Shown: positions 19,391 to 51,965 of the stretch, in pieces
Layout: each line of letters opens with the position of its first letter
Numbering within the stretch: position 1 is the first letter of the stretch
Notes under the pieces: generated by a model
Databases searched by the model: none
Told to the model about the DNA's origin: nothing
What the model saw: the letters and a program-made list of their open reading frames with translations, nothing else
Assembly (NCBI GenBank): GCA_021776115.1
Contig: JAJFGN010000042.1
Location: 15,000 to 78,999 of the forward strand
From: Kiloniellaceae bacterium
GTDB lineage: Bacteria > Pseudomonadota > Alphaproteobacteria > Kiloniellales > J153
Reading direction: 5' to 3'
DNA: 64,000 nucleotides
Program-made: the position numbers and the translations under genes

Positions 19391-19603
19391 CGAGGGATGA
19401 GCCATGCCCAAACCGCCCCGTATAGAAGACCTGAAACTTACGCCGTACTGGTGGGAGTCGGCGCCACCCGCCGTGACCGCTCCGGCCGATATCCCCGGGA
19501 CCGCGGATGTCGGGATCGTTGGGGCCGGGTTCGCCGGTATGACCGCGGCCCTCACCCTGGCCCGCGCGGGACGACGTGTCGTGGTCTTCGATGCCATGCG
19601 GGC
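19391..19603 (+). repeat. Direct repeat copy B (5' end of the intact FAD oxidoreductase gene)
   Basis: See copy A. Confidence 0.9.
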
Positions 19604-24412: not shown

Positions 24413-25016
24413 GAGGGACGCCCGCTCTCGCTGAAGATACCTGGGTCCGATGATAATGCATCCGCGAGGCGTGCCAACGCCTCATTGGCGCGGCGCCGGG
24501 GGACTGAATCGAAATAACACCCCCGAAAGGGGCGGCACGTTCCAGCTTGCCGAGGCTGCGGTATCGCGTGCTCTGTTCGCGCGCGTCCTGGGCTTGACTG
24601 CAGGTCTGCGCGCGTCGTCGCCAAAACCAACATGACGAAGCGCGTCAGGATGAGCGAGATCGTTCAGCAGACGAAGTGCGCCAAGCCACGGGTGAATCAT
24701 GCCTGGATTGCTGATTTCGTCGCCATAAACGGCCATGGGGCGAAAATTACGACAAATGTGACCTGGGTCAATGTTTCGATTGGCGAGTTGTGGTTGCTGT
24801 TTCAAATACCGGAAGTGCTATTTGGGAAATATCGGCTGACATGATTCGATATGTCACGGTTCCCTTCTCAGTCAAATGATTTTGATAAGGGAGCGGTACG
24901 GTCCACGTAGCGCCGGATAAGCGTTGCGGCACCTTGGCATTACATCCGCGGCCCGCGCCGCCGAGGCAGTCGGTGGCGAAGCGGCACGGAAAAATCGAGG
25001 CAGGGGAGATAGGGAC

Positions 25017-28000
25017 ATGGCACGAGCATATGCATCGAGCAAGCAAGGGCGGTGTTGGGCGGGCGTTCTGTCCGTCTTTGTCGCGTTCCTAGCCTTGACC
25101 GCCTGGGCGCCCCCGGCGGGCGCGTTCGAACAGTGGTCGACGGATAGAAACACCACGAATTGCGCCGAATGCCACGGCAACTTCCGGACGAGTCCCTACA
25201 TCTCGAACAAGGACGGGGCGAACTGGGGGGACGACCTCCACGACGTGCACCGGACCACGATGCTTTCCAGCGACTGCAACACCTGCCACGTAAGCGGATC
25301 GCGGTTCCCGGTCTTTCTCGGCTCTTCTGTCGGCGGAACCGGCCTCGACCCGATCTCCTGCGCGGGATGTCACGGCCGCGCCGAGGACGCGCAGACGCAG
25401 GGTAGTGTGATAGGTACGATTGGTGCCGGCCTGCGTCAGCGGCACTGGAATGCGGGGGAAACGGGCTGTCTCGACTGCCACGACGACTCCAATCCAACCG
25501 CTTTCACGACGGTGGCTGAAAACACACCGCCGCCCTACTACTTCACGCCCGACACGGCGCATCCCAACAAGCCGACCGACGCGTGCGACGCCAACGGGAC
25601 GGAAAGCCTGTTCGGAGCCACCGGCCTGGACAACGACGGCGACCTGCTCGAGGACGGCGCCGATTCGGACTGTGTGGTGGCAGTGCCTGACATCAATCCG
25701 AACCCGGCCACGCTCGACTTTGGCGTGGTCTTTGTCTCCAACACCGGCATGCTGACGACCCAGATCGAGAATTTGGGCACCGGCGATCTCACGGTGACCG
25801 GCCTCGGCTTTGGTGCCGGAACCAGCACGGAATTCACCTTCACGGCGCCGGCCACGCCGTTTATCGTCCCCGCCGGCGGCACGCAGGCCGTGGACGTGAG
25901 CTATTCGCCTGTCGATGTGGGCCTGGATACCGGCTCTCTGGAGATCGCCAGCGACGATCCCGACGAGGCCACCGTCGCGGTTGCCCTGTCGGGGACCGGC
26001 GAGGTGGCGCCGACGCCGGACATCAACCTCGCTCCGGTGGCGTTGGACTTCGGCACGGTCTTCCTCGGTAGTTCCTCGACCTTGACCGCCGACATCCAGA
26101 ACCTGGGCAATGCCGATCTCACGGTCACCTTCACTGGTCTGTGCACCGGCACCAGCGCGGAGTTCAGCTTCACGGCGGATGCGACTCCCTTTACCGTCCC
26201 GGCGGGCGGCAGCCGACAGGTGTCGGCGACCTATACCCCGGCCGACGTGGGAACGGATACCGGCTGTCTGGAAATCGCGAGCGACGATCCGGACGAAGCC
26301 ACGGTCTTGCTCGACCTGACGGGTACCGGAGCCGCGGTGCCGATACCGGACATCAACCTGAATCCGGTGGCGCTCGACTTCGGCACGGTCACGCTCGGTA
26401 ATTCGGGCACGCTGAGTGCCGATATCCAGAACCTCGGCAGCGCCGATCTCACTGTGACCGGCATCACGCCGTCCGCAGGGACGAGCGCCGAGTACAGCTT
26501 CACCGCACCGGCCGTCCCCTTCACGGTACCGGCGGGGGGCAGTCAGGCGGTGTCGGTGACCTACACCCCGGCGGATGTCGGGGTCGATGCCGGGTCTCTG
26601 GTGATCGCCAGCGACGACCCGGACGAGCCCACGTCCGACTTGGGCTTGACGGGCGCAGGCTCTGCCGTGCCTGCACCGGACATCAATCTGAATCCGGTGG
26701 CGCTCGACTTCGGCACGGTCACGGTCGGCGATTCCTTGATGCTGACCAGCCTGGTAGAGAACCTCGGGACGGCCAACCTGGCCCTTTCGGCCATCAACCT
26801 GTGCGCCGGCACCAGCAGCGAGTTCGTTCGCGGCGGGGTGTCGACCAACATCGCACCGGGGGCAAGCACGTCAATGACCGTGACCTACAGCCCGGTCGAC
26901 GAGGGCACCGATACCGGGTGCATAGCGATATCGAGCAACGATCCCGACGAGGCCACGGTCAATCTTGACCTTGCCGGAACCGGGGCAGTCGCGGCACCGG
27001 ACATCAACGTCACACCGATGGCGCTCGACTTTGGCGCGATCACCATCGGCAACACGGCGACCCTGTCCACCCAGATTGAGAACCTCGGCGCCGCCGATCT
27101 CAGTGTAACCGGCATCGCCTTGGGTTCGGGTACCAGCACGGAGTACAGCTTCACCGCACCGGCCACGCCTTTCGTGATCCCGGCCGGCGGCAGCCAAACC
27201 GTGACGGTGTCGTACGTTCCGTTCGATCTTGGTCTGGATACGGGGTCTCTGGAGGTCACCAGCGACGATCCGGACGAAGCCACGGTCACGGTTGCCCTGT
27301 CGGGGACCGGTGAGGCGGCGCCGACGCCGGATATCAACCTGGCTCCGATGGCGTTGGATTTCGGCACGGTCGCAATCGGCAATAGCGCGTTGCGCACCGC
27401 CGACATCCAGAACCTGGGCAATGCCGATCTCACGGTCGTCTTCGTCAACCTGTGCGTCGGTACCGGTGCGGAGTTCGACTTCACGGCGGATATGACACCC
27501 TTCGTTATCCCGCCGGGCGGCACCAGGGCCGTGTCGACGACCTACACCCCGGTCGATGTCGGGACCGACACCGGTTGCCTGGAGATTCAAAGCGATGATC
27601 CGGACGAATCGGTTGTCGAACTCGGCTTGACGGGTAGCGGTATCGATCAACCTGCCTTCAAGGAGGTCAACATCAAGGTGCCGCGTGCCATCAACCTGAA
27701 GAGCCGCGGTGTCACGCCCATCAAGTTCTGGGCCGACATGGACCTCGCCATCGCCGAGGTAACCTGTGGACCGGCCCAAGCCATGCCGGAACGGCTCAAC
27801 ACGGAAGACTTCAACGACGATGGCTTTACCGACGTGATTGGCTTGTTCAAGACTCAATCGCTCGGCATTGAGCGCGGCGACCGGACGCTGATGTGCAGCG
27901 GCATACTGGTTGGCGGCACCGCATTCGAGGGAACGTCCAATGAGTTCCGAACCGTCGGCCGCGACAAGGACAAAGACGAAGACGAAGACGAAGATCGCAA

Positions 28001-28091
28001 AAAAGATAAGGACGACGAAGACGAAGATGAAGATGAAGACGAAGACGAAGACGAAGACGAAGACGAAGACGAAGACGAAGACGAAGATTGA
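25017..28091 (+). CDS. Secreted tetrahaem c-type cytochrome fused to six Ig-like (choice-of-anchor-D/ASH-like) repeats and a poly-Asp/Glu tail
   Basis: Start ATG 25017 after GGGGAGA. Signal peptide ...FLALTAWAPPAGA. Four CXXCH motifs (CAECH, CNTCH, CAGCH, CLDCH), then GLDNDGDLLEDGADSDC. Six ~110-aa repeats begin PDIN(L)xPxALDFG. A C-terminal ~130-aa domain precedes the tail DKDKDEDEDEDRKKDKDDEDEDEDEDEDEDEDEDEDEDED. Confidence 0.85.
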   Translation: MARAYASSKQGRCWAGVLSVFVAFLALTAWAPPAGAFEQWSTDRNTTNCAECHGNFRTSPYISNKDGANWGDDLHDVHRTTMLSSDCNTCHVSGSRFPVFLGSSVGGTGLDPISCAGCHGRAEDAQTQGSVIGTIGAGLRQRHWNAGETGCLDCHDDSNPTAFTTVAENTPPPYYFTPDTAHPNKPTDACDANGTESLFGATGLDNDGDLLEDGADSDCVVAVPDINPNPATLDFGVVFVSNTGMLTTQIENLGTGDLTVTGLGFGAGTSTEFTFTAPATPFIVPAGGTQAVDVSYSPVDVGLDTGSLEIASDDPDEATVAVALSGTGEVAPTPDINLAPVALDFGTVFLGSSSTLTADIQNLGNADLTVTFTGLCTGTSAEFSFTADATPFTVPAGGSRQVSATYTPADVGTDTGCLEIASDDPDEATVLLDLTGTGAAVPIPDINLNPVALDFGTVTLGNSGTLSADIQNLGSADLTVTGITPSAGTSAEYSFTAPAVPFTVPAGGSQAVSVTYTPADVGVDAGSLVIASDDPDEPTSDLGLTGAGSAVPAPDINLNPVALDFGTVTVGDSLMLTSLVENLGTANLALSAINLCAGTSSEFVRGGVSTNIAPGASTSMTVTYSPVDEGTDTGCIAISSNDPDEATVNLDLAGTGAVAAPDINVTPMALDFGAITIGNTATLSTQIENLGAADLSVTGIALGSGTSTEYSFTAPATPFVIPAGGSQTVTVSYVPFDLGLDTGSLEVTSDDPDEATVTVALSGTGEAAPTPDINLAPMALDFGTVAIGNSALRTADIQNLGNADLTVVFVNLCVGTGAEFDFTADMTPFVIPPGGTRAVSTTYTPVDVGTDTGCLEIQSDDPDESVVELGLTGSGIDQPAFKEVNIKVPRAINLKSRGVTPIKFWADMDLAIAEVTCGPAQAMPERLNTEDFNDDGFTDVIGLFKTQSLGIERGDRTLMCSGILVGGTAFEGTSNEFRTVGRDKDKDEDEDEDRKKDKDDEDEDEDEDEDEDEDEDEDEDEDED
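25686..27656 (+). repeat. Six in-frame coding repeats of 330 nt (one of 321 nt)
   Basis: Repeat starts (ccngacatcaa) are at 25686, 26016, 26346, 26676, 26997 and 27327. Confidence 0.9.
28035..28082 (+). repeat. Perfect (GAAGAC)x8 microsatellite inside a longer GAN-codon tract (27963-28088)
   Basis: Read directly from the sequence. It encodes (ED)n at the extreme C-terminus of the large cytochrome. Confidence 0.95.
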
Positions 28092-30724: not shown

Positions 30725-31438
30725 ATGACACAACGCGTGCCGCTGTCCCTGCTGCCGGGCTTGCTGCTCGACGCCGGCCTTTGGCGGGCCCAGACGGAGG
30801 CTCTCGCGGACACCGCCGACTGCCGGGTCGCCGACTTTTCGACGCAGGATAATGTCGCGGACATGGCTCGCTCGGTCCTCGCGGCAATGCCGGAGCGTTT
30901 TGCCCTCGCCGGCTTGTCCATGGGCGGGTACGTCGCGCTCGAAATCATGCGCCAAGCGCCGCACCGTGTCGCCCTGCTGGCGCTGCTGGACACCAAGGCG
31001 CGATTGGACGTACCGGAAGAGACGCGCCGCCGGCGCGGCCTGATCGAACTGGCGCAAAAGGGCAAATTCCGCGGCGTTACCCGCATGCTCCTGCCCATGC
31101 TGGTTCACGAAGACGCGCTCGGCGACGAGGCCGTGACGGGTGAAATCATGGCCATGGCCGAGCGGTGCGGCCGCGACGTGTTCGTGCGTCAGCAAACCGC
31201 CATCATGACTCGGCCCGACAGCTTGCCGGGCTTGCCGCGCATTGCCTGCACGACCTTGGTCCTGTGCGGCCGCGAGGATGTCCGCACGCCGCTCGCGTGT
31301 CACGAGGAATTGGTCCGGGGTATTCACAGCGCGAGTCTGACCGTTATCGACGGGTGCGGTCACTTGCCGCCATTGGAAAAACCAACCGAAGTCAATCGGG
31401 CTTTACGCACATGGCTGTCCGCCTGGCCGCGAGGTTAG
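30725..31438 (+). CDS. Alpha/beta-fold hydrolase
   Basis: Nucleophile elbow GLSMGG, C-terminal GHLPPLEKP block, 237 aa. Confidence 0.85.
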   Translation: MTQRVPLSLLPGLLLDAGLWRAQTEALADTADCRVADFSTQDNVADMARSVLAAMPERFALAGLSMGGYVALEIMRQAPHRVALLALLDTKARLDVPEETRRRRGLIELAQKGKFRGVTRMLLPMLVHEDALGDEAVTGEIMAMAERCGRDVFVRQQTAIMTRPDSLPGLPRIACTTLVLCGREDVRTPLACHEELVRGIHSASLTVIDGCGHLPPLEKPTEVNRALRTWLSAWPRG

Positions 31439-31995
31439 AGATCGAACGCCGAGGAACTGCCCAGGATATTGTCGTTCTTGGAGGGGAACAGCTCGCGCGT
31501 TATCTGGCGCAGCAACCCTTTGAGCGCCGGGTCGTTGTGACCGGCCGCCGTTTGAGCCAAACGCGCGCTCACCGAAGTCTCGCGGGAGCTTCCTGCACAC
31601 AGCGCGGCCATAACCTGGATCGGTCCGTCGGCCTGGCGGCTGCTCGGCGCGGTTTCTTCGCAAAGATTCTGAGGTGAGGAACCGGGCTTGGCATTGAACA
31701 CCATAACGACCCGGTAGGGTGAGCCGTTATTCGGCTCCTTTTGGGTTGAGAACCGGAGTGGCTGCCCAAAGTTCGCGCCGGCCATCGCACCGGTTACCGT
31801 GCGTTCGAATTCGGCCTGCGACGCTTGAAAGGGGTTGCCGACAACCTGGGTGTATACGGGACCTTTAGCGGCGATGTAGTTGACGGTCTTGGGATCCCAT
31901 GTGCTCACATAAGTCGGGTCTAGCGCGCTGGCAGCACAGGCCGATAGCCCGCCGGCAAGAACCAAACTGGAAGTTAGTCGTGCAAAACCCGTCAT
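31435..31995 (-). CDS. Putative lipoprotein, unknown function
   Basis: MTGFARLTSSLVLAGGLSAC lipobox. GGAGG lies 9 nt upstream of ATG 31995. No family recognised. Confidence 0.55.
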   Translation of the reverse strand: MTGFARLTSSLVLAGGLSACAASALDPTYVSTWDPKTVNYIAAKGPVYTQVVGNPFQASQAEFERTVTGAMAGANFGQPLRFSTQKEPNNGSPYRVVMVFNAKPGSSPQNLCEETAPSSRQADGPIQVMAALCAGSSRETSVSARLAQTAAGHNDPALKGLLRQITRELFPSKNDNILGSSSAFDL

Positions 31996-32256
31996 CGAAT
32001 ACATCCTCCGTCGGCAACGATGAGACCTAGCATACCGCATTTGAGTGCGAATTCGGATCGCGACAATTCACGATTACGCGAAGCTTTGAAGTCGGCCTGA
32101 CGGACGCTTGCTTACATTGTTCGCGAGGCACTGAAAAGGCCTTGGCGGACGACGACCCCACTTAAAGGGGATTCCCGAACCGTCCTTTTTTGGCGGCAAG
32201 AAAAGAGGGGGGAGCTTGAGGCTCCCCCTGACCATCCCTCGCCGGCGGATCGGCGG

Positions 32257-33432
32257 CTACTTGCCGATGGTATGGGTGCTCGCGATCCCGGCGTAGGCTG
32301 CCTTGTCGGCGTCGGCATGGCAGCGCATGCACGCGAACTCCAGGCTCAGCGCATTCTTGGCCTTCTTGCCGTCGTCGCTGAACATGGTGTAGTCGGCGGC
32401 CTTGTTGATGCGGAACAGGTGAGTCCAGACGTCGCCCTCATAGGGGCCGTTCTTGATCGCCGATTTGGTCGCCCGGCCCATGTGGCAATCCTGGCAGCTG
32501 ACGCTGGCCTTCTCCATCGTACTGCCCGTGTAGGCCTTCCTTTGCTTGGCGTGGCAGGTATCGCAGACCTCCTTCTTGCCCTCGCGCACCTTGATGCCGC
32601 TGGCCCGCGTGTCGTGCGGATCGTGACAGCTGCCGCAGGAGAGCTTCGCGTGCGGGCTATTCAGGTGCTCTGGGTACTGTTCGTGGTGGCGGATAAAGCC
32701 GCCCGCAGCGATGGTCACATTGGGGTCCTTGCCGCGGACATGGCAGGATCCGCACTGCGCGGCCTTTTTGTCGATCTTGATGTTGGCCTTGGTCGGCTTC
32801 TTGGCGTGCGCCGCGCCCGGCCCATGACAGGCCTCGCAGGTGATGTTGAATTGGGCCCAGTCGCCTTTGATACCCGGAAGCCCGGCCTTGGAGACACCGG
32901 GGAAGCCCTTCTCGTTGAACACCTTGCCATCGATCTGGTAACCCGTGGTATGGCAGGTGCCGCAGGAAAACTGTTTCGTTTCGTCCTTGTGGTAGTTGCT
33001 CCACGACCCATCCGACCAGTTGTATTGGTTCTTGCCGTTCTTGGTGAGGATGTGCCCGTCGCTGCCGACAAAACGGGTCTTCCAGTGCTTGCTGGCGCCG
33101 ATGATGAAGAGGACGTTGTCCCAGTTGTAGACATCCTTGTCGTGATCGGGCAGCAGGAAGCCGCCGTCGCGGGCGTTGCCGAACAGGCCGAAGCGGCCAT
33201 CCAGGGCGCCGATGGCGGGGCCGCCGATGGCCAGCTTGCGGCTGTGGCCGTGGCTGAGCCAGGCGTCGAGCGCTTCGGCGTGGCATTGGCCGCAAACCTG
33301 GGGCCCTTCCGTGTAGGCCGCGTCGCCGTTGAGGCCCGCGGCCGCTGCCGGCGTGCTGGCCAGTGAAAGCACCAGTGCCGCCGGGAAGAGAAGACAGATC
33401 GGCATCAACGAGGGGAGGGAGATTTTTGTCAT
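32257..33432 (-). CDS. Periplasmic octahaem c-type cytochrome
   Basis: Signal peptide and eight CXXCH motifs (CGQCH, CGTCH, CEACH, CGSCH, CGSCH, CDTCH, CQDCH, CMRCH). AGGAG lies 6 nt upstream of the ATG. Confidence 0.85.
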   Translation of the reverse strand: MTKISLPSLMPICLLFPAALVLSLASTPAAAAGLNGDAAYTEGPQVCGQCHAEALDAWLSHGHSRKLAIGGPAIGALDGRFGLFGNARDGGFLLPDHDKDVYNWDNVLFIIGASKHWKTRFVGSDGHILTKNGKNQYNWSDGSWSNYHKDETKQFSCGTCHTTGYQIDGKVFNEKGFPGVSKAGLPGIKGDWAQFNITCEACHGPGAAHAKKPTKANIKIDKKAAQCGSCHVRGKDPNVTIAAGGFIRHHEQYPEHLNSPHAKLSCGSCHDPHDTRASGIKVREGKKEVCDTCHAKQRKAYTGSTMEKASVSCQDCHMGRATKSAIKNGPYEGDVWTHLFRINKAADYTMFSDDGKKAKNALSLEFACMRCHADADKAAYAGIASTHTIGK

Positions 33433-33747: not shown

Positions 33748-34959
33748 TTATCTCGCGGGTTGGTTCGCATATAGCGAAGCGACGCTTTCGATGATCGCCT
33801 CGCTATAGGGCAGGCTCATCCTGTGCATCATGGAGCTGCCGCGCTTGCCGTCGCGATACGCCCTCAGGGCCTTAACGAGATAGTCCTTGTCCTGCCCGCT
33901 GATCTTCGGAATCGCCATCGTCGGATTCTTAACCTCCGCGCCGTGGCAACGGTTGCATTTCGCGGCTAACTCCGGCGCGGTTATCGGCCTGCTCTCTGCC
34001 GACGCGGATTGCTGTGTCGCATAAAACGCCGCGAGATTCGCGATCTCTTTGTCGGTGTCGTCGATGAGCATCCCATCGTGCTGGCGAGACCGGTCGCGGT
34101 AGGCCTTGATCGCGCCGACCAGGTATAGCGGGTCCTGGGCGGCAAGGCTCGGCGTTGCCGTATCGTGGCTCACCCCGCGCGCGCCGTGGCAACCGCCGCA
34201 GCGGGCGCTTAGCGGCTCGCCGGCGGCGGCGTCGCCGAAGGTGGGCGCGTCCCGCCGTGCCGGAGTTTGAGTCGCGTAGTACATGGCCAAGCTCTCGATA
34301 TCGACATGGCTCAGTTCGCGCAGCATCTCCTTGCCGGAAATGCTGCGTCTGCCGTCCAGATAGGCCCGCACGGCAGAGACAAAATAAAGCGGCTGTTGGC
34401 CGGCCAGACTCGGCGTGCCGGAAGTCTTGCTGTTGCCGTCGTCGCCATGGCAATTGGCGCAGACGCCGGCCTGTGCCTTGCCCTTTTCGTAGGGAGACAT
34501 GAGATCTTCCGGCTTCATTTCAGCGACGCCCTCGAGCGGCGGCAGACTGGCGTAGTAGCCAGCGACGTTGCGGATCTCCGCGCTGCTCAGCTCCTTCGTC
34601 ATGTCCCGGAGGGCGGCATGCGTCCGCTTTTCCTCCTTGTAGGCAACTAGCGACTCGAACAGATACTGGTCGACCTGGGCCGCCATGTGAGGGATACCGG
34701 GCGCCCGGCCCCTCCCGTCCAGGCTATGGCAGCCGACGCACTGCGCCTCCGCCACGGATTTGCCAGCGCCGATATCCGGGGGCACCATGGCGGTCTTCGT
34801 ATCCTCGCCGCACCCGATCAGCACCAATGGCAGCACGATACCCAATGCAAAGCGCCTCACGAACCGTCTCGGACTGGAGCCCGATCGAAGAACCGGTGAG
34901 AGTATGGCCCGGCTCTCGGTGAAAACGGCCCTGTAGGTTCCCTTGTGCATGCGTGCCAT
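33748..34959 (-). CDS. Lipoprotein with four class-I (c4/c553-like) cytochrome c domains
   Basis: Lipobox LVLIGC. Four ~90-aa repeats each carry one CXXCH (CVGCH, CANCH, CGGCH, CNRCH) and a downstream AYxxGxR....M block. The ATG at 34959 is preceded by GGAGA; an upstream GTG at 34974 is also possible. Confidence 0.8.
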   Translation of the reverse strand: MARMHKGTYRAVFTESRAILSPVLRSGSSPRRFVRRFALGIVLPLVLIGCGEDTKTAMVPPDIGAGKSVAEAQCVGCHSLDGRGRAPGIPHMAAQVDQYLFESLVAYKEEKRTHAALRDMTKELSSAEIRNVAGYYASLPPLEGVAEMKPEDLMSPYEKGKAQAGVCANCHGDDGNSKTSGTPSLAGQQPLYFVSAVRAYLDGRRSISGKEMLRELSHVDIESLAMYYATQTPARRDAPTFGDAAAGEPLSARCGGCHGARGVSHDTATPSLAAQDPLYLVGAIKAYRDRSRQHDGMLIDDTDKEIANLAAFYATQQSASAESRPITAPELAAKCNRCHGAEVKNPTMAIPKISGQDKDYLVKALRAYRDGKRGSSMMHRMSLPYSEAIIESVASLYANQPAR

Positions 34960-34992
34960 CGATAAGGTCTCCACAATATGGCGGTCTCGCTT

Positions 34993-36987
34993 CTACCCGG
35001 ACACCGTATGTCCCCAGAAGCCGACCAAAACCAGGACGAGCAGCGTCAGTCCGATCAGGATCAATGTGGCCCCCAATACCTTGGAAGCCCGCGTCATCGG
35101 CCGCGACGGCGCGTCCACCAGATATTTCTCGAACTCTCCGCTTTCGACCAGACGCCGGTATTCCAATGTGTGCTCGCGTTTGTACTCCTCCAACGGCATG
35201 GCTCCCGTGAACATCAAGATATCCATCGGAAACTTGTCCGGCCTGAAATGGACGTTGAAAAAGTGAACCGAGAACAAGAACACGGCTGCAAGGAACGCCT
35301 CCTCCCCGTGAACGAGGGTCGCCACATTGAACACCCACCCGGGCAGAACGGAGGCCGTTACCTGCGGAAACCACAACATCGCTCCACTCAAGCCGATGAT
35401 CACCATGCCCCAGAACGGCGCCCAGTAGTCGAATTTCTTCCAGTAGGTCCAGCGGTCGAAGATCGGCCGCGATCCCATGCCGAAGAACCACTTGAACATG
35501 GCCACCACATCCCACAGGTCTTGCAGGTTCGGCACCGTCGAGTTGGGCCCGAAGAACTTGAAGGTTTTCCAGTTCCGGATGACGTGGGTCAGAACGTACA
35601 CGAGATGCCCGACGAATATGAAGATGAAGGCCGCTGCGGCGAATCTGTGGATCAACGCCGCGACTTTGGGGCCACCGAGCAGCTTCATGACTAGCTGCGC
35701 CCAGCCCGAATCCGCATAGAGCACCGCAGTCCCGGTCAGGACTAGCGTCATTATGGCGATCGCAAAGATGAGGTGGGCGAGCCGCCAGAGGGCGGGCCAG
35801 CGCTTGACATACTTCTTTTCGCCCTGCGGCAACTCGTTGATCTGCACGTGCGGCCTGTTCTTGGCTTCCGCGCGGTCTCTGTACTCCCGGTAGAACCACA
35901 GCGCCGAGTGAGTCCAGAAGAAGGCGAAGACGCCGGAGAGCAGCGCGATCATGCCCTTGGAGGCGAGCCACAAATACGGATAGCGTTCGAAGTCTTTGGT
36001 ATTGCCGTGCGGCTGGAAGGTGGTGAACCCGGCGACCGCGTCCTCATGACATTTCCGGCAGGTGGTAAGGCGGTTGGTCCCGTACACCTGCGATGCCGGG
36101 TCGTCCACCCTTTGAATTTCGTGGTAACCGTGGCAGTCGAAGCATTTGGCTGTATAGGCATAGCCCAAGGTGCTCACCTGGCCGTGGTACGTACCGGTAT
36201 AGGTTTCCAGCTCTTCTTCGTGGCAGTTCCCGCAATTCTTGGTAATCGCCAGTTCGACCGAGCCACCGTTACTGCCGGTCGGAGATTCGATGTCATGCGT
36301 GGTATGGCAGTCTGTGCAGACGGCTGCGAAAGGATTGGCGTTAACGGAAATCTCCTTGCCGTGCACTGAGGTCAGATAGGCAGCCTTTTGCTCGGTATGA
36401 CACCTCCCGCAGATGTTCGGAATCTCCAGCCGCGATTCCGCACCGATCGTGCTTTCGATCGGAACGACATAGTGGGCATTGTGGCAGTCATAGCAGGTTG
36501 CGTTGGTTCGCGACTGGTCGTCCATATTGGGCCGGGCGTGGATCGACGCCCAGTAGCTCTCGATCTGCCGCACCACCTTGCCCAACGTGGCGTTTTCCGC
36601 CATCTTGCCCTCGCGCAGGGCTGTTTCCCATAGGCTCTGGTGGCACTTGACGCAGCCGACCACTCGATCGACGTTCTCCCGGTGCGGGATCTCGACGACG
36701 TCCTTGTGGCACTCCACGCAAGCGCGCTTCCCATGCACGCTCTCTCCGAATCTCTCCGGCTCTATATGCAGCTGGCGCATTTCACCGCCGGGGCCGGGTT
36801 CGGCAAAATCTTCGATGCCGTGACAACCCAGGCACAATTCGCTGTCAAGCAATTCGGCGTCGCTTTCGGCCGCCGTGTCAGCGCTTGGGGTCGTCTGCGC
36901 CTCGGCTCGCGCCGACCAACCGCCGGTCGCGACCGCCAACAAAACACTGCTCGCAAGGGCCCAAGTCAGAAATCTGGAAGCGCGCAT
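34993..36987 (-). CDS. CbcL-like fusion: periplasmic nine-haem c-type cytochrome domain plus membrane cytochrome-b (FdnI/HydC-like) domain
   Basis: Signal peptide and nine CXXCH motifs (CLGCH, CVECH, CVKCH, CYDCH, CGRCH, CTDCH, CGNCH, CFDCH, CRKCH) in residues 1-330. About six hydrophobic helices follow, with conserved His residues (WRLAHLIF, ALIHRFAAAAFIFIFVGHLVY, ATLVHGEEAFLAAVFLFSVHFFNVHF). Confidence 0.85.
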   Translation of the reverse strand: MRASRFLTWALASSVLLAVATGGWSARAEAQTTPSADTAAESDAELLDSELCLGCHGIEDFAEPGPGGEMRQLHIEPERFGESVHGKRACVECHKDVVEIPHRENVDRVVGCVKCHQSLWETALREGKMAENATLGKVVRQIESYWASIHARPNMDDQSRTNATCYDCHNAHYVVPIESTIGAESRLEIPNICGRCHTEQKAAYLTSVHGKEISVNANPFAAVCTDCHTTHDIESPTGSNGGSVELAITKNCGNCHEEELETYTGTYHGQVSTLGYAYTAKCFDCHGYHEIQRVDDPASQVYGTNRLTTCRKCHEDAVAGFTTFQPHGNTKDFERYPYLWLASKGMIALLSGVFAFFWTHSALWFYREYRDRAEAKNRPHVQINELPQGEKKYVKRWPALWRLAHLIFAIAIMTLVLTGTAVLYADSGWAQLVMKLLGGPKVAALIHRFAAAAFIFIFVGHLVYVLTHVIRNWKTFKFFGPNSTVPNLQDLWDVVAMFKWFFGMGSRPIFDRWTYWKKFDYWAPFWGMVIIGLSGAMLWFPQVTASVLPGWVFNVATLVHGEEAFLAAVFLFSVHFFNVHFRPDKFPMDILMFTGAMPLEEYKREHTLEYRRLVESGEFEKYLVDAPSRPMTRASKVLGATLILIGLTLLVLVLVGFWGHTVSG

Positions 36988-40283: not shown

Positions 40284-41156
40284 CTAGCTGGCGACGGAGG
40301 AGCCGGTAGCGCCCGCCGCGCCCGCGTCGGCGAGGCCGGTCATACGGAAGCCCGGACCTTCTTTCTGGCGCCGAGCCGCGTCGTCGCGGCCTCGTATCTT
40401 GCCGATGCGGAAGGTCATGTCTTTGGAGAGCTTATCGTATGCCTCGGCGGTCTTGGCCACGTCCTCCGGTGCAACAATGCCTGTAGCTTGAAGAATCGCC
40501 TGGAGGTAGTCGAGGGACGTCTCCTTGGGGGGCTTATGGGCCTCCGACCAGAATTCGATGATCCCGGCGATATAACCTGTCAGGCGTAGCCTGTGCTCCG
40601 GTGTTTTGCCGAATTGCGGCCCGACATATTGAAGGGCGTCTTGAACCAAGGCCAGGAGGTTGGCCATTTCCGAATCGCTCTTCTTGGGTGGCGACGCCTT
40701 GGGTGCGATGGGTTCCGCGGATTTGAGATTGGCGCTGACGTCCGTGAGTTTTTTCTTGCGCCTGGCGCTCAAGCCTTGTCGTTGCGCGTGCTGCAGCCAG
40801 AGCGTGATCCGCTCGACAAGGGTTTCCATGCTGTCGGACTTGATTATGTAATCGTCGCCTCCGGCGGCGAGGCAGTCGCGCAGGACGTCGATCTGGTCTA
40901 GGGCGCTCAGAAATAAGATCGGAATGTTGCCGCCGATGATCTTTCGGGCGCGCTCGCAGGTCTCGATGCCGTTGAGCTTTGGCATCATGATGTCCAGGAT
41001 CACCAGACGGGGCGTTGTCTTTGAGAGGAAGCTCAGCGCTTCGACACCGTCGGCCGCCGCCAAGACGCTGAAGCCAGCGGCGCTTAGCGTGTCGACATAA
41101 AGCCGTCTCATGAGCGGATCGTCTTCCGCGAGGACAATAAGGCCGCCGCCTGCCAC
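40284..41156 (-). CDS. Response regulator: receiver domain plus uncharacterised C-terminal domain
   Basis: REC motifs (LIVLAEDD, VILDIMMPKLNG, ILFLSA, DDYIIKS) followed by a ~150-aa domain that I cannot assign. Confidence 0.85.
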   Translation of the reverse strand: MAGGGLIVLAEDDPLMRRLYVDTLSAAGFSVLAAADGVEALSFLSKTTPRLVILDIMMPKLNGIETCERARKIIGGNIPILFLSALDQIDVLRDCLAAGGDDYIIKSDSMETLVERITLWLQHAQRQGLSARRKKKLTDVSANLKSAEPIAPKASPPKKSDSEMANLLALVQDALQYVGPQFGKTPEHRLRLTGYIAGIIEFWSEAHKPPKETSLDYLQAILQATGIVAPEDVAKTAEAYDKLSKDMTFRIGKIRGRDDAARRQKEGPGFRMTGLADAGAAGATGSSVAS

Positions 41157-41270
41157 GCCTGTTACGCCTTTCCGGTTAACCGACCGAGCTATGGAACGAT
41201 ACGGAACGGAAGATTAACCGTATTTACTTAACGATCCGTTTTCCAAGCCCCCGGAGTTCACGGCGTTTAT

Positions 41271-41738
41271 TCAGGAAGTGTCGTGTTCGGCAGAGCCGAG
41301 TTTGGCATTGAGATCCTGGAGCAATTTCTCGCGCCTGGCATGCATGCCTTGCCGCTTCGCGTGCCGCCGCCAGGTATGGATCCGCTCGATCAGGGATTCG
41401 ATGCTGTTGGACTTGATCAGGTAATCGTCGCCGCCGGCGGCGAGGCAGTCGCGCAGGATGACGATCTGATCCAGGGCGCTCAGAAAAAGGATCGGGATGT
41501 CATTGCCGATGATCTTTCGGGCGCGCTCACAGGTCTCGATGCCGTTGAGTTTCGGCATCATGATGTCCAAGATGACCAGTCGAGGCGTTACCCTGGAGAG
41601 CAAGCTCAGAGCCTCCAAACCGTCAGCCGCCGCCAGAACGCTGAAGCCGGCTTCTTCCAGAGTATCGACATAAAGCCGCCTCATGAGCACATCGTCTTCC
41701 GCAAGGACAATGAGGCCTCTGCTACTTATGCTTGTCAC
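41271..41738 (-). CDS. Single-domain response regulator (receiver only), paralogue of the downstream gene
   Basis: About 75-80% amino-acid identity by eye to residues 5-150 of ORF 40284..41156. Confidence 0.85.
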   Translation of the reverse strand: MTSISSRGLIVLAEDDVLMRRLYVDTLEEAGFSVLAAADGLEALSLLSRVTPRLVILDIMMPKLNGIETCERARKIIGNDIPILFLSALDQIVILRDCLAAGGDDYLIKSNSIESLIERIHTWRRHAKRQGMHARREKLLQDLNAKLGSAEHDTS

Positions 41739-48666: not shown

Positions 48667-49212
48667 TTAGCGTGGCGTGTCCGGATTGAGCCGGCTGCCT
48701 AGATAATCCAGGATCGCCGACAATTCCTCCGGCTCGGGTTCGGGCATGCCCTGTTCCTCGACCATCCATTCCAGCGTCTCTTCCCACGACGCCCGCGTTA
48801 GCCGCTGCTGCAGCACAATGGCGAGCGAGTGACACGCTTGACAGATGTAATAAACCTCCTCGCGTCCCGGACCCGCCGCTAGTCCACCCCAGTCTTCGCT
48901 ATCGACGCCGAAATGGGTCGAGAGATAGGACAAGATCAAGGTCCGGGCCCAAGGCTTGGGCGGTGTCATGTTATTGGACTTGATCATGCGTTCGATGTTC
49001 GCGTCCCAGTCCTCGCGGCTCATGCGCTGCTGTGCGAACTGGTTGAGCGAGTGGCAAGCGGTGCAGGTGAAATACACTGCTTCCCGGCCCGGGCCCTCGG
49101 GCAAGCCCTCGAAATCGGCGGCGTCCTGTGCGGCGCTGGCGGTTGGGAGGCGCGCGCCCCAACCGCCGAGCAGCAAGATCGTCAGGAAAACCCCAGCAGC
49201 GAAGCGGTTCAA
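48667..49212 (-). CDS. Periplasmic dihaem c-type cytochrome (two tandem domains), probable electron acceptor of the sulfite dehydrogenase
   Basis: Signal peptide. Two homologous halves each carry GPGRE(A/E)VY(F/Y)xCxACHSL. The start overlaps the stop of the Mo-enzyme gene. Confidence 0.8.
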   Translation of the reverse strand: MNRFAAGVFLTILLLGGWGARLPTASAAQDAADFEGLPEGPGREAVYFTCTACHSLNQFAQQRMSREDWDANIERMIKSNNMTPPKPWARTLILSYLSTHFGVDSEDWGGLAAGPGREEVYYICQACHSLAIVLQQRLTRASWEETLEWMVEEQGMPEPEPEELSAILDYLGSRLNPDTPR

Positions 49213-50522
49213 GCGACCTGGACCGCGATTCGATGCATGGAGTTGTTGAGGTAGCCCTTGGGATTCCAGTTGATCGCAAAGGGTTGCGTCATGCCGGCGT
49301 CATCGGTGGCGCGGGCCCAGATCTCGTAATAGCCCTTCTCGGGGAACGATAGGTCGGCGTTCCAGCGTTGCCAGGAGTAAGGGTTGGGTGGGTCCATGAG
49401 TTGGGCCGCGATCCAGGTCGCGCCGAAATCTATGCTGACGTGCATCGCGGCCACCTTCCGGTCGCCGGCCCAAGCGTGCCCACCGACCCGCAGGCTCCGC
49501 CCACCGATGCTTTGGCCGGTCTCATGCGAGGTGATCAGGGACTTCACCGGCATGGCCTCGATAATCCGGAAATCCTTCTTGTCCACTTTGGTGCCCGGCG
49601 CGACGTTGTAGTAGGGCCGCCGGTACGCCGTGCCGGTCATCTTCGGCCCGTCGTGCACGACGTCGCGGATCTGAATCCGGCGCAGCCATTTTTGCGAGGT
49701 CGACCCAGGCCAGCCCGGACAAATCGTGCGCGCCGGAAATCCGTTCAGGGTCGGGATCGGCTCGCCATTCATCTCGAAGGCGACGATCGAATGGGCCTCC
49801 ATCGCCTTGGCCAAAGGCACTCCGCGCGAGATCGGTAACTTGTTCGGGTCGCCGGAAAGGTGTCCATCCATACCGTAGTGCGCGGTATAGATGGCCGAGT
49901 CTTTGACGCCCGCGGCCTTGAGCAGGTCGCGGTAACGTATGCCCGTCCACTCGGCATTGCCGATCGCGCCGAGGGTCCATTGATTGCCCTTGGCCGGCGG
50001 GTTGAAGGCGGCGCGGCCATTGCCGCCGCATTCGACCTGGAGCTTGAGCTTGACCACCTCGAACCTGCTCTTGAGGTCGTCGAGCGTCAGCGTCATCGGG
50101 TTGTTCACCTCACCGTCGACGGTAAGCGTCCAGCCGCTTGCGTCCATCTTCTCGGCCATTTCAGGCACGATTCCGTTGTTACGCACGAAATGGCGGCTGT
50201 TGGGGGTCACGTCGTCGTCGAGCAGGTGCGGCGGCGTCTCGGCGTTGATCGGCCTGTCGTTCAAGACCGTCAGGCCGTCCTTGCCTTTGAGCATGAAATC
50301 CTTGGTCGATTCCGCCAGGGCGGCGGGGATCAGGCCACTGGGCATGTTGCTTTGGAAGGGAATAGTGCCGCCGACCACGGCGCCCATCGCGGCCAAGCCG
50401 GCGCCCTTTAGAAAGCCGCGCCGATCGCGCTCCGCGACCCGGCCGAAAATCATATAGTCGGCCGCTTCCGGGTCCTGTTCATAAAGTTCGCAGATGCCTC
50501 GCTCGATCGGCTTCTTGGTCAT
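49209..50522 (-). CDS. Sulfite-oxidase-family molybdopterin oxidoreductase (SorA/SoxC-like), Tat-exported
   Basis: Twin-arginine signal ERDRRGFLKGAGLAAMGAVV. Moco-binding region (LNDRPINAETPPHLL, VECGGNGR) and a C-terminal dimerisation-domain-like sequence. Confidence 0.87.
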   Translation of the reverse strand: MTKKPIERGICELYEQDPEAADYMIFGRVAERDRRGFLKGAGLAAMGAVVGGTIPFQSNMPSGLIPAALAESTKDFMLKGKDGLTVLNDRPINAETPPHLLDDDVTPNSRHFVRNNGIVPEMAEKMDASGWTLTVDGEVNNPMTLTLDDLKSRFEVVKLKLQVECGGNGRAAFNPPAKGNQWTLGAIGNAEWTGIRYRDLLKAAGVKDSAIYTAHYGMDGHLSGDPNKLPISRGVPLAKAMEAHSIVAFEMNGEPIPTLNGFPARTICPGWPGSTSQKWLRRIQIRDVVHDGPKMTGTAYRRPYYNVAPGTKVDKKDFRIIEAMPVKSLITSHETGQSIGGRSLRVGGHAWAGDRKVAAMHVSIDFGATWIAAQLMDPPNPYSWQRWNADLSFPEKGYYEIWARATDDAGMTQPFAINWNPKGYLNNSMHRIAVQVA

Positions 50523-51441: not shown

Positions 51442-51965
51442 TTCGCGGCCTTCCTTGCCCGCGCCGGCAGCGGCTGCACATTGCTCTCGCCGATAGCCAG
51501 CAACAGGCAATGGCGGGCCCGGCTGAGACGGCTCATAACGGTGCCTGGCGGAACCCCGATCAGCGCCGCCGTTTCGCCGTAACTAAAGCCGGCCAGGTCG
51601 ACCAGAGCAATCACTTCGCGATGCGGCGGCGACAGCTTGGTCAATCCGATGCGCACCGTCAGGCTGCTGATCAGGCTGTCGTCGAAGCGCCAGGTTTCGC
51701 CTCCCTCCGCGACAGGTTCGGTGGCATCGTCCAGTGCGACGACGCGTCCCGAGCGGCGCTCCTCGTCAAAGAAAGCGTTGCGGAGTATCCGGAACAACCA
51801 GGCCCGGTAAGCCGGTTCATCGCCCGGCCATCGGCGCGCCGCCATGGCGCGCAACGCGCAGTCCTGGACTAGATCCCGGGCTCGGTCCCGGTTTCCGGTC
51901 AAGCTGATCGCGTAGCCGTTTAAGCGGCCAAGATAGGCCGCGATGCGCGCGCGCTGTTCCGTCAC
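51438..51965 (-). CDS. ECF-type RNA polymerase sigma factor
   Basis: Region 2 (DLVQDCALRAM...YRAWLFRILRNAFFDEERR) and region 4 (LSPPHREVIALVDLAGFSYGETAALIGVPPGTVMSRLSRAR). Confidence 0.9.
   Translation of the reverse strand: MTEQRARIAAYLGRLNGYAISLTGNRDRARDLVQDCALRAMAARRWPGDEPAYRAWLFRILRNAFFDEERRSGRVVALDDATEPVAEGGETWRFDDSLISSLTVRIGLTKLSPPHREVIALVDLAGFSYGETAALIGVPPGTVMSRLSRARHCLLLAIGESNVQPLPARARKAAK

What the first reader, a model, noticed from the sequence alone, without database searches (positions are those of the whole stretch)
34993..36987. CbcL-type fusion of a nine-haem c-type cytochrome with a membrane cytochrome-b domain
Seen in the sequence:
- one 664-aa ORF with a signal peptide;
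- nine CXXCH motifs in the first ~330 residues;
- then about six hydrophobic helices with His residues placed as in FdnI/HydC-type dihaem b cytochromes.

Established knowledge: a nine-haem c domain fused to a HydC/FdnI-like b cytochrome is the architecture described for Geobacter sulfurreducens CbcL. CbcL is an inner-membrane quinol oxidoreductase used for extracellular electron transfer at low potential.

Inference: this gene would connect the quinone pool to the periplasmic cytochromes encoded immediately downstream. That would be an EET-like or metal/mineral-redox module in a genome whose core gene order looks alphaproteobacterial. No outer-membrane porin-cytochrome partner is visible in the cluster, so the terminal partner is unknown and may be new.
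Basis: partly seen in the sequence, partly recalled or inferred. Interest (0 to 1): 0.72.

Follow-up and report, generated by a model that had tools for sequence, protein, structure and literature searches.

The report
MtoC-type nine-haem/cytochrome-b fusion protein
The gene encodes an inner-membrane protein that joins a nine-haem periplasmic cytochrome c to a two-haem, FdnI-like membrane cytochrome b. It belongs to the already catalogued CbcL/MtrH/MtoC family, and its conserved partner is a four-haem c4-like lipoprotein cytochrome, not an outer-membrane porin system.

Summary
The ORF at 34993..36987 (-) encodes 664 aa with a signal peptide and nine CXXCH motifs (residues 52-314). It has nine conserved distal His and six TM helices.

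The membrane domain is FdnI-like:
- Profile against PDB: 1kqf_C, E=5e-13.
- AF2 model of residues 330-664: pLDDT 93.6. The only significant Foldseek hit is 1kqf_C (TM 0.78).
- The four FdnI haem ligands align with family-invariant H405, H447, H560 and H575.

The protein belongs to the known CbcL/MtrH/MtoC family (Zhong & Shi 2018), but to the MtoC/MtrH branch rather than Geobacter CbcL:
- Its haem-motif spacing matches MtoC/MtrH.
- It is 51-56% identical to Dechloromonas and Gallionella homologues.
- It is 31% identical to a CbcL-type protein.

It sits in a clade defined by context. In 32 of 34 related loci a tetrahaem (or, in two Gallionella loci, hexahaem) c4-like cytochrome gene follows directly. 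In the tetrahaem partners examined the lipoprotein Cys is conserved. The octahaem gene next door is not conserved with it. No MtrB/PioB porin lies in the window, although related Hyphomicrobiales loci carry PioAB-like genes beside the module.

Most likely function: a quinone-pool to periplasmic cytochrome c oxidoreductase. The direction of electron flow is unresolved. This is a new member of a known kind and of modest interest.

The parts
34993..36987 (-). Gene for the 664-aa MtoC/MtrH-type nonahaem c / dihaem b fusion cytochrome (stop codon 34993-34995)
   Evidence: ORF list. Pfam and NCBIfam. More than 2296 homologues. 5183 cluster representatives at E<=1e-3.
36904..36987 (-). Signal peptide, residues 1-28 (A-R-A | E cleavage motif)
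   Evidence: Read from the translation. AF2 predicts a helix at residues 2-22. The cleavage site itself is inferred.
35980..36903 (-). Periplasmic nine-haem c-type domain, residues 29-336. CXXCH at 52, 90, 112, 165, 193, 224, 252, 282 and 310. Distal His candidates H85, H102, H150, H172, H209, H231, H268, H289 and H327.
   Evidence: Motif count. Invariance in alignment A1. Pfam Cytochrome_C7, MtrC/MtrF domain II/IV and c3_2.
34996..35979 (-). Membrane domain, residues 337-664. It is an FdnI-like four-helix dihaem cytochrome b core (TM 399-423, 440-471, 515-539, 550-581) flanked by an extra N-terminal TM (337-373) and an extra C-terminal TM (629-663). Haem-b ligands are H405 and H575 (cytoplasmic-side haem) and H447 and H560 (periplasmic-side haem). 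Other family-invariant residues: H360, R396, R448, D490, Y515, K518.
   Evidence: Profile hit to 1kqf_C with ligand-to-ligand alignment. Invariant columns. AF2 pLDDT 93.6. Foldseek hit to 1kqf_C.
33748..34974 (-). Conserved partner gene: a tetrahaem cytochrome c of four class-I (two c4-like) domains, with a lipoprotein signal (LVLIGC, Cys55). CXXCH at 79, 172, 259 and 340. The start codon is uncertain (34974 GTG, 34959 ATG or 34860 GTG).
   Evidence: Pfam Cytochrom_C. PDB cytochrome c4 6q2u at E=1.6e-19. Directly downstream in 32 of 34 clade loci. Lipobox and haem motifs conserved. Start candidates read.
32257..33432 (-). Adjacent octahaem periplasmic cytochrome c (391 aa, Sec signal peptide). 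It is on the same strand, 315 nt downstream of the partner gene. It is not conserved with the module in any other genome.
   Evidence: Eight CXXCH. Pfam. 916 homologues, which are stand-alone genes elsewhere. No significant match near any related locus; only weak 23-26% local hits.
32208..32228 (-). Terminator-like hairpin (8 bp, 7 G-C pairs, T-run) just after the octahaem gene. It is the first such site downstream of the gene that is not inside a coding sequence.
   Evidence: Consensus scan. Pattern match only; not evidence of function.
31435..32040 (-). Gene for a 201-aa protein with a lipobox (LSAC) and no family match. Same strand, function unknown, not conserved in related loci.
   Evidence: Translation. 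No Pfam or NCBIfam hit. tblastn hit only in L002, the same organism.

Best explanation
The gene encodes an inner-membrane quinone-pool/cytochrome c oxidoreductase of the CbcL/MtrH/MtoC family, in the MtoC/MtrH branch.

Structure. A Sec-exported chain of nine bis-His c-type haems sits in the periplasm. It is tethered by one TM helix to an FdnI-type four-helix cytochrome b that holds two b haems stacked across the membrane: H447/H560 near the periplasm and H405/H575 near the cytoplasm. This much is shown.

Mechanism, inferred by homology with FdnI. The quinone/quinol site lies next to the cytoplasmic-side haem. Electrons therefore cross the membrane between that site and the periplasmic haem wire.

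Partner, inferred from conserved gene order. The cognate redox partner is the tetrahaem, c4-like lipoprotein cytochrome encoded directly downstream. The two genes form a module that defines a clade across Alpha-, Beta- and Gammaproteobacteria.

Direction is not settled. My preferred reading, at roughly even odds, is quinol oxidation. Electrons would pass to the c4-like cytochrome and on to periplasmic or terminal acceptors, with protons released to the cytoplasm. That makes it a branch that does not build proton-motive force, as proposed for CbcL.

The neighbouring octahaem cytochrome may draw on the same periplasmic electron pool, but it is not part of the conserved module.
For: - Architecture and ligands.
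- Family membership and branch: full-length homology to more than 2296 proteins. The published survey of CbcL/MtrH/MtoC gives motif coordinates. The window's spacing matches MtoC/MtrH. Identity is 51% to the Dechloromonas hankyongensis protein that sits directly after a decahaem and an MtrB_PioB porin, and 56% to Gallionella MAG proteins.
- Partner: a same-strand c4-like gene starts within 700 nt in 32 of 34 clade loci that have downstream DNA, and in none of the 46 more distant loci. The NJ tree gives three context-coherent clades. The partner resembles cytochrome c4 and FccA. Its lipobox Cys is conserved.
- N-side quinone site and non-proton-motive quinol oxidation: the same argument is made for CbcL from the FdnI topology (bioRxiv 10.1101/2022.08.31.506072). 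Family-invariant polar residues R396, D490, Y515 and K518 lie at the cytoplasmic ends of the helices, and K518 aligns with FdnI K114 beside the N110-Q113 quinone-site segment (placement inferred from topology).
Against: - No biochemical data exist for any member of this clade.
- Haem potentials, quinone type and the position of the quinone site are all inferred.
- The direction of electron flow is not determined. The FdnI fold works natively in the inward direction (periplasm to quinone), and named relatives (MtoC) are proposed quinone reductases in Fe(II) oxidisers.
- Conserved Met ligands in the partner were seen only for domains 3 and 4. Domain 1 has a conserved His instead, so 'high potential' is not shown for all four haems.
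- Related Hyphomicrobiales loci of the same clade add PioAB-like genes, so some members may serve EET.
- A physical interaction between the two gene products is not shown.
Confidence: 0.65

Rival explanations
1. Same protein, opposite direction. It would be a quinone reductase taking electrons from periplasmic oxidations (reduced sulfur, sulfite, Fe(II)) through the c4-like lipoprotein cytochrome and the nine-haem wire. Quinone would be reduced at the cytoplasmic face, as in the formate dehydrogenase-N redox loop.
For: - The FdnI fold normally carries electrons inward (established knowledge; fold shown).
- MtoC is proposed as the quinone reductase of the Mto Fe(II)-oxidation pathway.
- A sister clade is adjacent to flavocytochrome c sulfide dehydrogenase genes in 11 loci from sulfur oxidisers. 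FccB was confirmed by Pfam.
- The partner is homologous to the FccA haem subunit.
- A SorA-like molybdoenzyme plus a dihaem cytochrome lie about 12 kb away in the window.
Against: - Reducing ubiquinone at the N side against the membrane potential needs a donor well below the quinone potential. Class-I c4-type haems are usually far above it (established knowledge; not measured here).
- No dehydrogenase gene is part of the conserved module in the window's clade.
Confidence: 0.28
2. This would be a Geobacter-type CbcL orthologue acting as the inner-membrane quinol oxidase of an extracellular electron transfer pathway to metals, minerals or electrodes, with an outer-membrane conduit encoded elsewhere or of a new kind.
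For: - Same domain architecture as CbcL.
- Multihaem cytochromes cluster here: an octahaem whose nearest solved sequence relatives include 6i5b, the 333-aa chain A of entry 6r2q (the entry whose chain C is deposited as an OmcA/MtrC-family decahaem) and the multihaem cytochrome 6qvm.
- A 1055-aa secreted tetrahaem/Ig-repeat protein lies 7 kb away.
- L035 and L031, in the same clade, have PioAB-like genes beside the module.
Against: - 31% identity to a CbcL-type protein, and non-CbcL haem spacing.
- No MtrB/PioB or MtoA homologue in 64 kb.
- The conserved partner is c4-like, not a PpcA-, MtrA- or PCC-type cytochrome.
- The octahaem and the 1055-aa protein are absent from all 80 related loci.
- Most clade members come from aerobic or denitrifying lineages, judging by the record titles.
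Confidence: 0.1
3. The gene would be the membrane anchor (gamma subunit) of a formate dehydrogenase, hydrogenase or another known periplasmic enzyme, as the automatic label 'cytochrome b subunit of formate dehydrogenase' suggests.
For: JGI names for many homologues. FdnI fold. A weak TIGR01583 hit.
Against: - TIGR01583 scores 37 bits against a cut-off of 115.85.
- No FdnG/H-, Hya- or Nrf-type catalytic genes lie next to it in the window or in any related locus examined.
- The fused nine-haem domain takes the place of the catalytic partner.
Confidence: 0.02

Closest known systems
MtoC (Gallionella capsiferriformans ES-2 Galf_2006; Dechloromonas aromatica RCB Daro_1404) and MtrH (Rhodoferax ferrireducens Rfer_4073). 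These are nonahaem inner-membrane cytochromes of the Mto/Mtr clusters (Shi et al. 2012; Zhong & Shi 2018, PMC6295460).
   Same: - Length is 655-673 aa, with nine CXXCH in nearly the same spacing and six TM helices at matching positions.
- Identity is 51-56% to Dechloromonas and Gallionella homologues fetched here.
- The FdnI-like b domain is the same.
   Different: - The window gene is not in an mtoAB/mtrAB cluster.
- It falls in a separate clade whose conserved neighbour is a tetrahaem c4-like lipoprotein, not MtoA/MtoB/MtoD.
- The named reference sequences themselves could not be retrieved. The comparison rests on their published motif coordinates and on congeners.
CbcL (Geobacter sulfurreducens GSU0274), the menaquinol oxidase needed for reduction of low-potential extracellular acceptors.
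   Same: The domain plan is the same: a signal peptide, nine CXXCH, then a six-TM HydC/FdnI-like dihaem b domain with no FeS, flavin or Mo subunits.
   Different: - CbcL is 619 aa with haem spacing 23-25-23-24-29-28-43-28, unlike the window protein.
- Identity is about 31-37% to proteins with CbcL-type spacing.
- The taxonomic setting differs (Desulfuromonadales and Syntrophales versus Proteobacteria), and so does the gene neighbourhood.
FdnI, the cytochrome b556 gamma subunit of E. coli formate dehydrogenase-N (PDB 1KQF chain C).
   Same: The four-helix dihaem fold and all four haem-ligand His positions match. The conserved Lys after the quinone-site loop also matches.
   Different: - Sequence identity is only 17%.
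- There are no FdnG/FdnH partners.
- An extra TM helix is present at each end, and the periplasmic electron input/output is a fused nine-haem cytochrome c.
- The score is far below the NCBIfam equivalog cut-off.
Cytochrome c4 and the FccA dihaem subunit (comparison for the downstream partner gene).
   Same: Class-I cytochrome c domains arranged in c4-like pairs. PDB c4 6q2u scores E=1.6e-19 and 1fcd_C scores E=3.5e-9.
   Different: - Four domains in one chain, not two.
- A lipoprotein anchor.
- Obligate linkage to the MtoC-like gene.
- Met ligands are conserved only in domains 3 and 4.

Membership tests
CbcL/MtrH/MtoC family (Zhong & Shi 2018) | N-terminal exported multihaem c-type domain (3-23 CXXCH; nine in the type members) | tested here: met
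   Nine CXXCH at residues 52-314, behind a signal peptide. All are invariant in homologues.
CbcL/MtrH/MtoC family (Zhong & Shi 2018) | C-terminal domain of about six TM helices, similar to HydC/FdnI dihaem b cytochromes | tested here: met
   Pfam PF01292 at 33.1 bits, above the 30.1 cut-off. Profile hit to 1kqf_C at E=5e-13. AF2 model with six TM helices and a Foldseek hit to 1kqf_C at TM 0.78.
CbcL/MtrH/MtoC family (Zhong & Shi 2018) | Conserved His in the TM region as haem-b ligands | tested here: met
   H405, H447, H560 and H575 are invariant in 142 sequences and align with FdnI H18, H57, H155 and H169. Haem binding itself was not tested.
CbcL/MtrH/MtoC family (Zhong & Shi 2018) | Full-length sequence homology to named members | tested here: inconclusive
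   Full-length hits of 46-74% identity to proteins from Dechloromonas, Gallionella, Rhodoferax and Thiocapsa roseopersicina; T. roseopersicina is a species listed in the survey. The reference sequences GSU0274, Galf_2006, Daro_1404 and Rfer_4073 could not be fetched.
CbcL sensu stricto (Geobacter/Desulfuromonas/Syntrophus group) | At least about 57% identity within the group; about 35% to MtoC/MtrH | tested here: not met
   31% identity over 593 aa to P0266, a Syntrophales protein with CbcL-type spacing. 33-39% to other proteins with CbcL-type spacing.
CbcL sensu stricto (Geobacter/Desulfuromonas/Syntrophus group) | Haem-motif spacing of GSU0274 (23-25-23-24-29-28-43-28) | tested here: not met
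   The window's spacing is 38-22-53-28-31-28-30-28.
CbcL sensu stricto (Geobacter/Desulfuromonas/Syntrophus group) | Menaquinol oxidation feeding reduction of low-potential extracellular acceptors | not testable with these tools
   Needs genetics and electrochemistry.
MtoC/MtrH branch | Haem-motif spacing about 37-41, 22-30, 51-53, 28-31, 31, 25, 30, 28, and TM positions as in Galf_2006, Daro_1404 and Rfer_4073 | tested here: met
   Window spacing and TM helices compared with Table S2 coordinates.
MtoC/MtrH branch | Encoded in a cluster with mtoAB/mtrAB (decahaem plus MtrB/PioB porin) | tested here: not met
   No MtoA, MtoB or PioB match in the 64-kb window. Present in L082, L057, L067 and others, and in clade member L035. 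The rest of the genome was not available.
Formate dehydrogenase gamma subunit (FdnI, TIGR01583) | Score above the equivalog cut-off, and adjacency to FdnG/FdnH | tested here: not met
   37.3 bits against a cut-off of 115.85. No catalytic-subunit genes nearby.

The most novel reading that the evidence does not exclude
The window's clade would be a distinct, uncharacterised respiratory module that is widespread in Alpha-, Beta- and Gammaproteobacteria. Its parts are the MtoC-like nonahaem/b fusion and a dedicated tetrahaem c4-like lipoprotein, often joined by a second tetrahaem paralogue and an Aq_1264_TM membrane protein. It would act as a bc1- and ACIII-independent link between the quinone pool and the periplasmic cytochrome c network. 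The nine-haem wire might reach a lipoprotein cytochrome anchored on the far side of the periplasm. The module could then be plugged into different input or output systems: PioAB in Hyphomicrobiales, and bc1 nearby in Gallionellaceae.
Probability: 0.3. Interest if true: 0.55.

Novelty: new member of a known kind. Interest (0 to 1): 0.3.

Why it matters
The practical value here is a correction. Nine-haem/cytochrome-b fusions in Proteobacteria should not automatically be read as Geobacter-like EET quinol oxidases. Within this one family, gene context splits into at least three coherent groups:
- linked to MtoAB porin-cytochrome genes;
- linked to flavocytochrome c sulfide dehydrogenase genes;
- linked to a c4-like tetrahaem lipoprotein.

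The third group, which holds the window gene, is common in metagenomes and has no characterised member. If it proves to be a general quinone:cytochrome c link that bypasses bc1 and ACIII, that would change how respiratory chains and energy yields are reconstructed for many environmental Proteobacteria. For this gene alone, the result is a confident annotation rather than a discovery.

Tried and rejected
1. Full-length AF2 with 25 close homologues gave pLDDT 54 and was unusable. I replaced it with a b-domain model built from a 142-sequence alignment.
2. I tried to name the 50%-cluster representatives through the listing of cluster members. Almost all are unnamed metagenomic proteins, apart from a Magnetococcales cluster.
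3. GSU0274, Galf_2006, Daro_1404 and Rfer_4073 could not be retrieved as sequences. I used their published motif and TM coordinates and proteins with CbcL-type spacing as proxies.
4. The afdb50 fold library was not available.
5. Octahaem gene as part of the module: rejected. Homologues elsewhere are stand-alone, and no related locus has one.
6. Formate dehydrogenase or hydrogenase subunit: rejected (neighbourhoods).
7. The 'novel nonaheme cytochrome' of Ferrigenium straubiae (2026 preprint) has a different architecture: one TM helix plus separate membrane and FeS subunits.
8. The hexahaem lipoprotein of 'Ca. Tenderia electrophaga' might be related to the Gallionella hexahaem partner. I could not check this.
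9. My crude ORF calling in high-GC loci picked up some antisense ORFs. The context statistics therefore rest on tblastn hits.
Full report
**1.

The minus-strand ORF 34993..36987 starts with ATG and encodes 664 aa. The identical protein is already in public collections (P0001). A Logan contig from run SRR15505516 carries the same four-gene stretch (L002).

The N-terminus reads as a Sec signal peptide ending in A-R-A. Nine CXXCH motifs start at residues 52, 90, 112, 165, 193, 224, 252, 282 and 310. In an alignment of 25 homologues (60-81% identity) all nine motifs are invariant. So are nine further His: H85, H102, H150, H172, H209, H231, H268, H289 and H327. That is one candidate distal ligand per haem, which points to a pure bis-His electron-transfer chain rather than a catalytic haem. 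Pfam finds multihaem models (Cytochrome_C7, MtrC/MtrF domain II/IV) and Ni_hydr_CYTB just above its cut-off, at 33.1 against 30.1 bits.

**2. The membrane domain is an FdnI-type dihaem cytochrome b**

- A profile of 46 family members spanning 30-75% identity hits the gamma subunit of E. coli formate dehydrogenase-N (1kqf_C) as the best PDB entry, at E=5.3e-13 over residues 3-208 of 217.
- In the printed alignment the four FdnI haem ligands H18, H57, H155 and H169 fall on H405, H447, H560 and H575.
- These four His are invariant in that set and in a 142-sequence set reaching 24% identity. H360, R396, R448, D490, Y515 and K518 are invariant there too.
- A first full-length AlphaFold run was poor, with pLDDT 54.
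- A model of residues 330-664 built on the 142-sequence alignment reached pLDDT 93.6 and pTM 0.90. It has six TM helices: 337-373, 399-423, 440-471, 515-539, 550-581 and 629-663.
- Its only significant Foldseek match in the PDB is 1kqf_C (E=2e-4, probability 1.0, TM 0.78 normalised to FdnI, rmsd 3.6 A). Hydrogenase-1 cytochrome b is a weak second.

The domain is therefore FdnI plus one extra helix at each end. With the c domain in the periplasm, the topology puts H447/H560 near the periplasm and H405/H575 near the cytoplasm, as in FdnI.

**3. Which family, and which branch**

The architecture has a name. Zhong & Shi (2018, PMC6295460) surveyed 'CbcL/MtrH/MtoC' homologues. They found 138 proteins in 15 phyla, with 3-23 haem motifs, mostly six TM helices and conserved TM His. 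CbcL was about 35% identical to MtoC and MtrH, which are about 55-59% identical to each other.

The family is very large:
- more than 2296 hits in the 90%-clustered collection, the top 120 all full-length at 60-80% identity;
- 5183 representatives of 50% clusters at E<=1e-3, of which 769 are at E<=1e-30.

The survey's Table S2 gives motif coordinates.

| Protein | Haem-motif spacing |
|---|---|
| GSU0274 (CbcL, 619 aa) | 23-25-23-24-29-28-43-28 |
| Galf_2006 (MtoC) | 37-23-53-31-31-25-30-28 |
| Daro_1404 (MtoC) | 40-25-51-31-31-25-30-28 |
| Rfer_4073 (MtrH) | 41-30-53-31-31-25-30-28 |
| Window protein | 38-22-53-28-31-28-30-28 |

The window protein has the MtoC/MtrH pattern. An entry with almost the same spacing is already in that table (Gammaproteobacteria bacterium SG8_15, 38-22-53-28-31-27-30-28). 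Cluster representatives with CbcL-type spacing are 33-39% identical to the window protein. One of them, a Syntrophales protein, aligns at 31% over 593 residues. By contrast, identity is 51% to the Dechloromonas hankyongensis homologue and 56% to the Gallionella MAG homologues.

It is wrong at the level of orthology. I could not retrieve the four reference sequences themselves, so this rests on their published coordinates and on congeners.

**4. Gene context splits the family**

A scan of one genome per species returned 80 loci. tblastn with the window's neighbouring proteins, and with neighbours picked from other loci, gives three patterns. These match three clades in a neighbour-joining tree.

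- **(a) Burkholderiales/Rhodocyclales proteins, 49-54% identical.** These are solitary or lie next to a decahaem and an MtrB_PioB porin. An example is L082, where the porin scores 479 bits. This is the classical MtoC/MtrH situation.
- **(b) Sulfur-oxidiser proteins, 46-49% identical.** These come from Thiobacillus, Hydrogenophilales, Thiodiazotropha and other symbionts. They sit next to a dihaem cytochrome and an FCSD flavoprotein, confirmed by Pfam in L083.
- **(c) The window's clade, 56-74% identical.** It includes Alphaproteobacteria, Kiloniellales, Rhodospirillales, Afifella, Hyphomicrobiales, Sulfuricaulis, Sterolibacterium, Steroidobacteraceae, Burkholderiales and Gallionella. A same-strand gene for a c4-like multihaem cytochrome begins within 700 nt of the stop codon in 32 of the 34 loci that have downstream sequence. 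It does so in none of the 46 loci of groups (a) and (b).

In clade (c), most loci with enough flanking sequence also carry two further genes. One is a second tetrahaem paralogue (37-42% identical). The other is a membrane protein with one CXXCH, of Pfam family Aq_1264_TM. Neither is present in the window.

**5. The partner**

The downstream ORF (33748..34974) has four CXXCH motifs in four class-I cytochrome c domains. Its best solved relatives are cytochromes c4 (6q2u, E=1.6e-19) and the haem subunit of flavocytochrome c. A lipobox (LVLIGC) precedes the mature protein. The Cys is conserved in 26 of 29 orthologues read. Met302 and Met383/386 are conserved as likely axial ligands of domains 3 and 4. 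Domain 1 has a conserved His119 instead.

The start codon is uncertain: 34974, 34959 or 34860. The intergenic gap is therefore 18-132 nt. No terminator-like site lies between the two genes on that strand.

**6. What is not part of the module**

The octahaem gene (32257..33432) lies 315 nt further on. It belongs to a family of 916 detected homologues. In the three relatives whose contigs I read it is a stand-alone gene with unrelated neighbours. It is absent from all related loci. The 201-aa lipoprotein gene and the 1055-aa tetrahaem/Ig-repeat protein are likewise unique to this genome among the loci held.

The rest of the window is housekeeping. It includes a gyrB/parE-type topoisomerase subunit (by reading), a DEAD-box helicase, glnA-glnB, sufB, tig-clpP-clpX, ABC transport and formamidase. 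It also holds a SorA-like molybdoenzyme with a dihaem cytochrome and two cytochrome P460-like proteins. No MtrB/PioB, MtoA or FccB homologue is present.

**7. How it most likely works**

Shown: the fold, the ligand set, the topology and the conserved gene pair.

Inferred by homology with FdnI, and argued in the same way for CbcL by Bond and co-workers:
- the quinone site is at the cytoplasmic-side haem;
- quinol oxidation would therefore release protons into the cytoplasm and send electrons outward across the membrane;
- that step does not add to proton-motive force;
- the reverse reaction would be a Fdn-like redox loop that needs a low-potential donor.

The conserved polar residues R396, D490, Y515 and K518 lie at the cytoplasmic ends of the helices. 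K518 aligns with FdnI K114, next to the N110-Q113 quinone-site segment.

The partner is built from c4-like domains, which are normally high-potential carriers to oxidases. No dehydrogenase or porin belongs to the conserved module. I therefore favour quinol to nine-haem wire to tetrahaem lipoprotein to periplasmic or terminal acceptors. This preference is slight. The inward direction is supported by the family's use in Fe(II) and sulfur oxidisers and by the native direction of the FdnI fold.

EET is not excluded for the clade. In L035 (Hyphomicrobiales) the module is followed by a decahaem and an MtrB_PioB porin of 306 bits. L031 has a 72%-identical decahaem and the start of the porin at the end of the locus. 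L003 has MtrB_PioB fragments about 9 kb away. In L037 (Gallionellaceae) genes that read as petABC (a Rieske protein, a cytochrome b and a one-haem c1; judged by size and N-terminal sequence only, no domain search run) lie beside the module.

**8. Novelty and verdict**

The family was named in 2012-2015 and surveyed in 2018. The window protein is a new, uncharacterised member from an alphaproteobacterial lineage whose nearest relatives are MAGs at 74% identity.

The one point I did not find in the papers I read is the tight, clade-wide coupling to a tetrahaem c4-like lipoprotein. The 2018 survey notes only that some homologues are adjacent to c-type cytochrome genes. That is a modest refinement and not a new kind of system.

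Interest is 0.3. Novelty: a new member of a known kind.

Noticed in passing
window 24924-28091 (+): A 1055-aa secreted protein. It has an N-terminal tetrahaem c-type region (CXXCH at 80, 118, 146, 182), six choice-of-anchor D / ASH Ig-like repeats (NF012200, 364 bits), and a C-terminal tail of about 45 residues that is almost pure Asp/Glu. No homologue occurs in any of the 80 related loci. It could be a surface or extracellular cytochrome.
   Followed up: partly
window 32257-33432 (-): An octahaem periplasmic cytochrome (391 aa). About 70 close homologues and 916 detected in all, spread over Proteobacteria, Chloroflexi, Nitrospirota, Aminicenantes and Firmicutes, all uncharacterised. It is a stand-alone gene in the three other genomes read. 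The best solved sequence relative is 6i5b ('uncharacterized protein'), at E=6e-10 over one short stretch.
   Followed up: partly
L063, L068-L071, L077, L079-L081, L083, L084: A sister clade of the same fusion protein is consistently adjacent to flavocytochrome c sulfide dehydrogenase genes (a dihaem FccA-like gene plus an FCSD flavoprotein) in sulfur-oxidising Beta- and Gammaproteobacteria and in symbionts. This suggests a possible electrogenic route from sulfide to quinone.
   Followed up: partly
L035 10001-18512; L031 10001-21956: In two Hyphomicrobiales MAGs the MtoC-like / tetrahaem / Aq_1264_TM module is followed by a PioA-like decahaem and, in L035, a complete MtrB_PioB porin. In L031 a hexahaem/NrfC-like/NrfD-like trio lies in between.
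   Followed up: partly
L001, L003, L005, L007-L010, L012, L013, L015-L017, L019, L024, L027, L031, L034-L038: A membrane protein of about 250-265 aa with a single CXXCH was found by tblastn in all these loci. Precomputed annotation assigns it to Pfam PF27139 (Aq_1264_TM) in L001 and L003, but my own hmmscan of the L005 copy found no Pfam family. It recurs next to the module together with a second tetrahaem paralogue. Its function is unknown and it is absent from the window.
   Followed up: no
window 48667-50522 (-): A SorA-like molybdopterin oxidoreductase (Oxidored_molyb plus Mo-co_dimer, with a TAT-like RRGFLKG signal). Its stop overlaps the start of a 181-aa dihaem cytochrome gene. The ORFs at 50638-51965 read as an ECF sigma/anti-sigma pair, but that is from the translations only; no domain search was run on them.
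   Followed up: no
window 5450-6094 and 6261-7346 (+): Two neighbouring secreted proteins match cytochrome P460 (35 and 26 bits), each with one CXXCH.
   Followed up: no
window 18252-18497 and 19404-20717 (+): The first 50 residues of a 437-aa DAO-family FAD oxidoreductase are duplicated, with two substitutions, in an 81-aa ORF about 1.1 kb upstream. This looks like a partial gene duplication or a remnant.
   Followed up: no
window 54001-56000: G+C drops to 0.515 against about 0.62 elsewhere. The 347-aa ORF at 54320-55363 (-) has no Pfam match. The stretch may be foreign DNA.
   Followed up: no
window 40284-41738 (-): Two tandem paralogous response-regulator receiver genes (290 and 155 aa) have nearly identical first 120 residues.
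   Followed up: no
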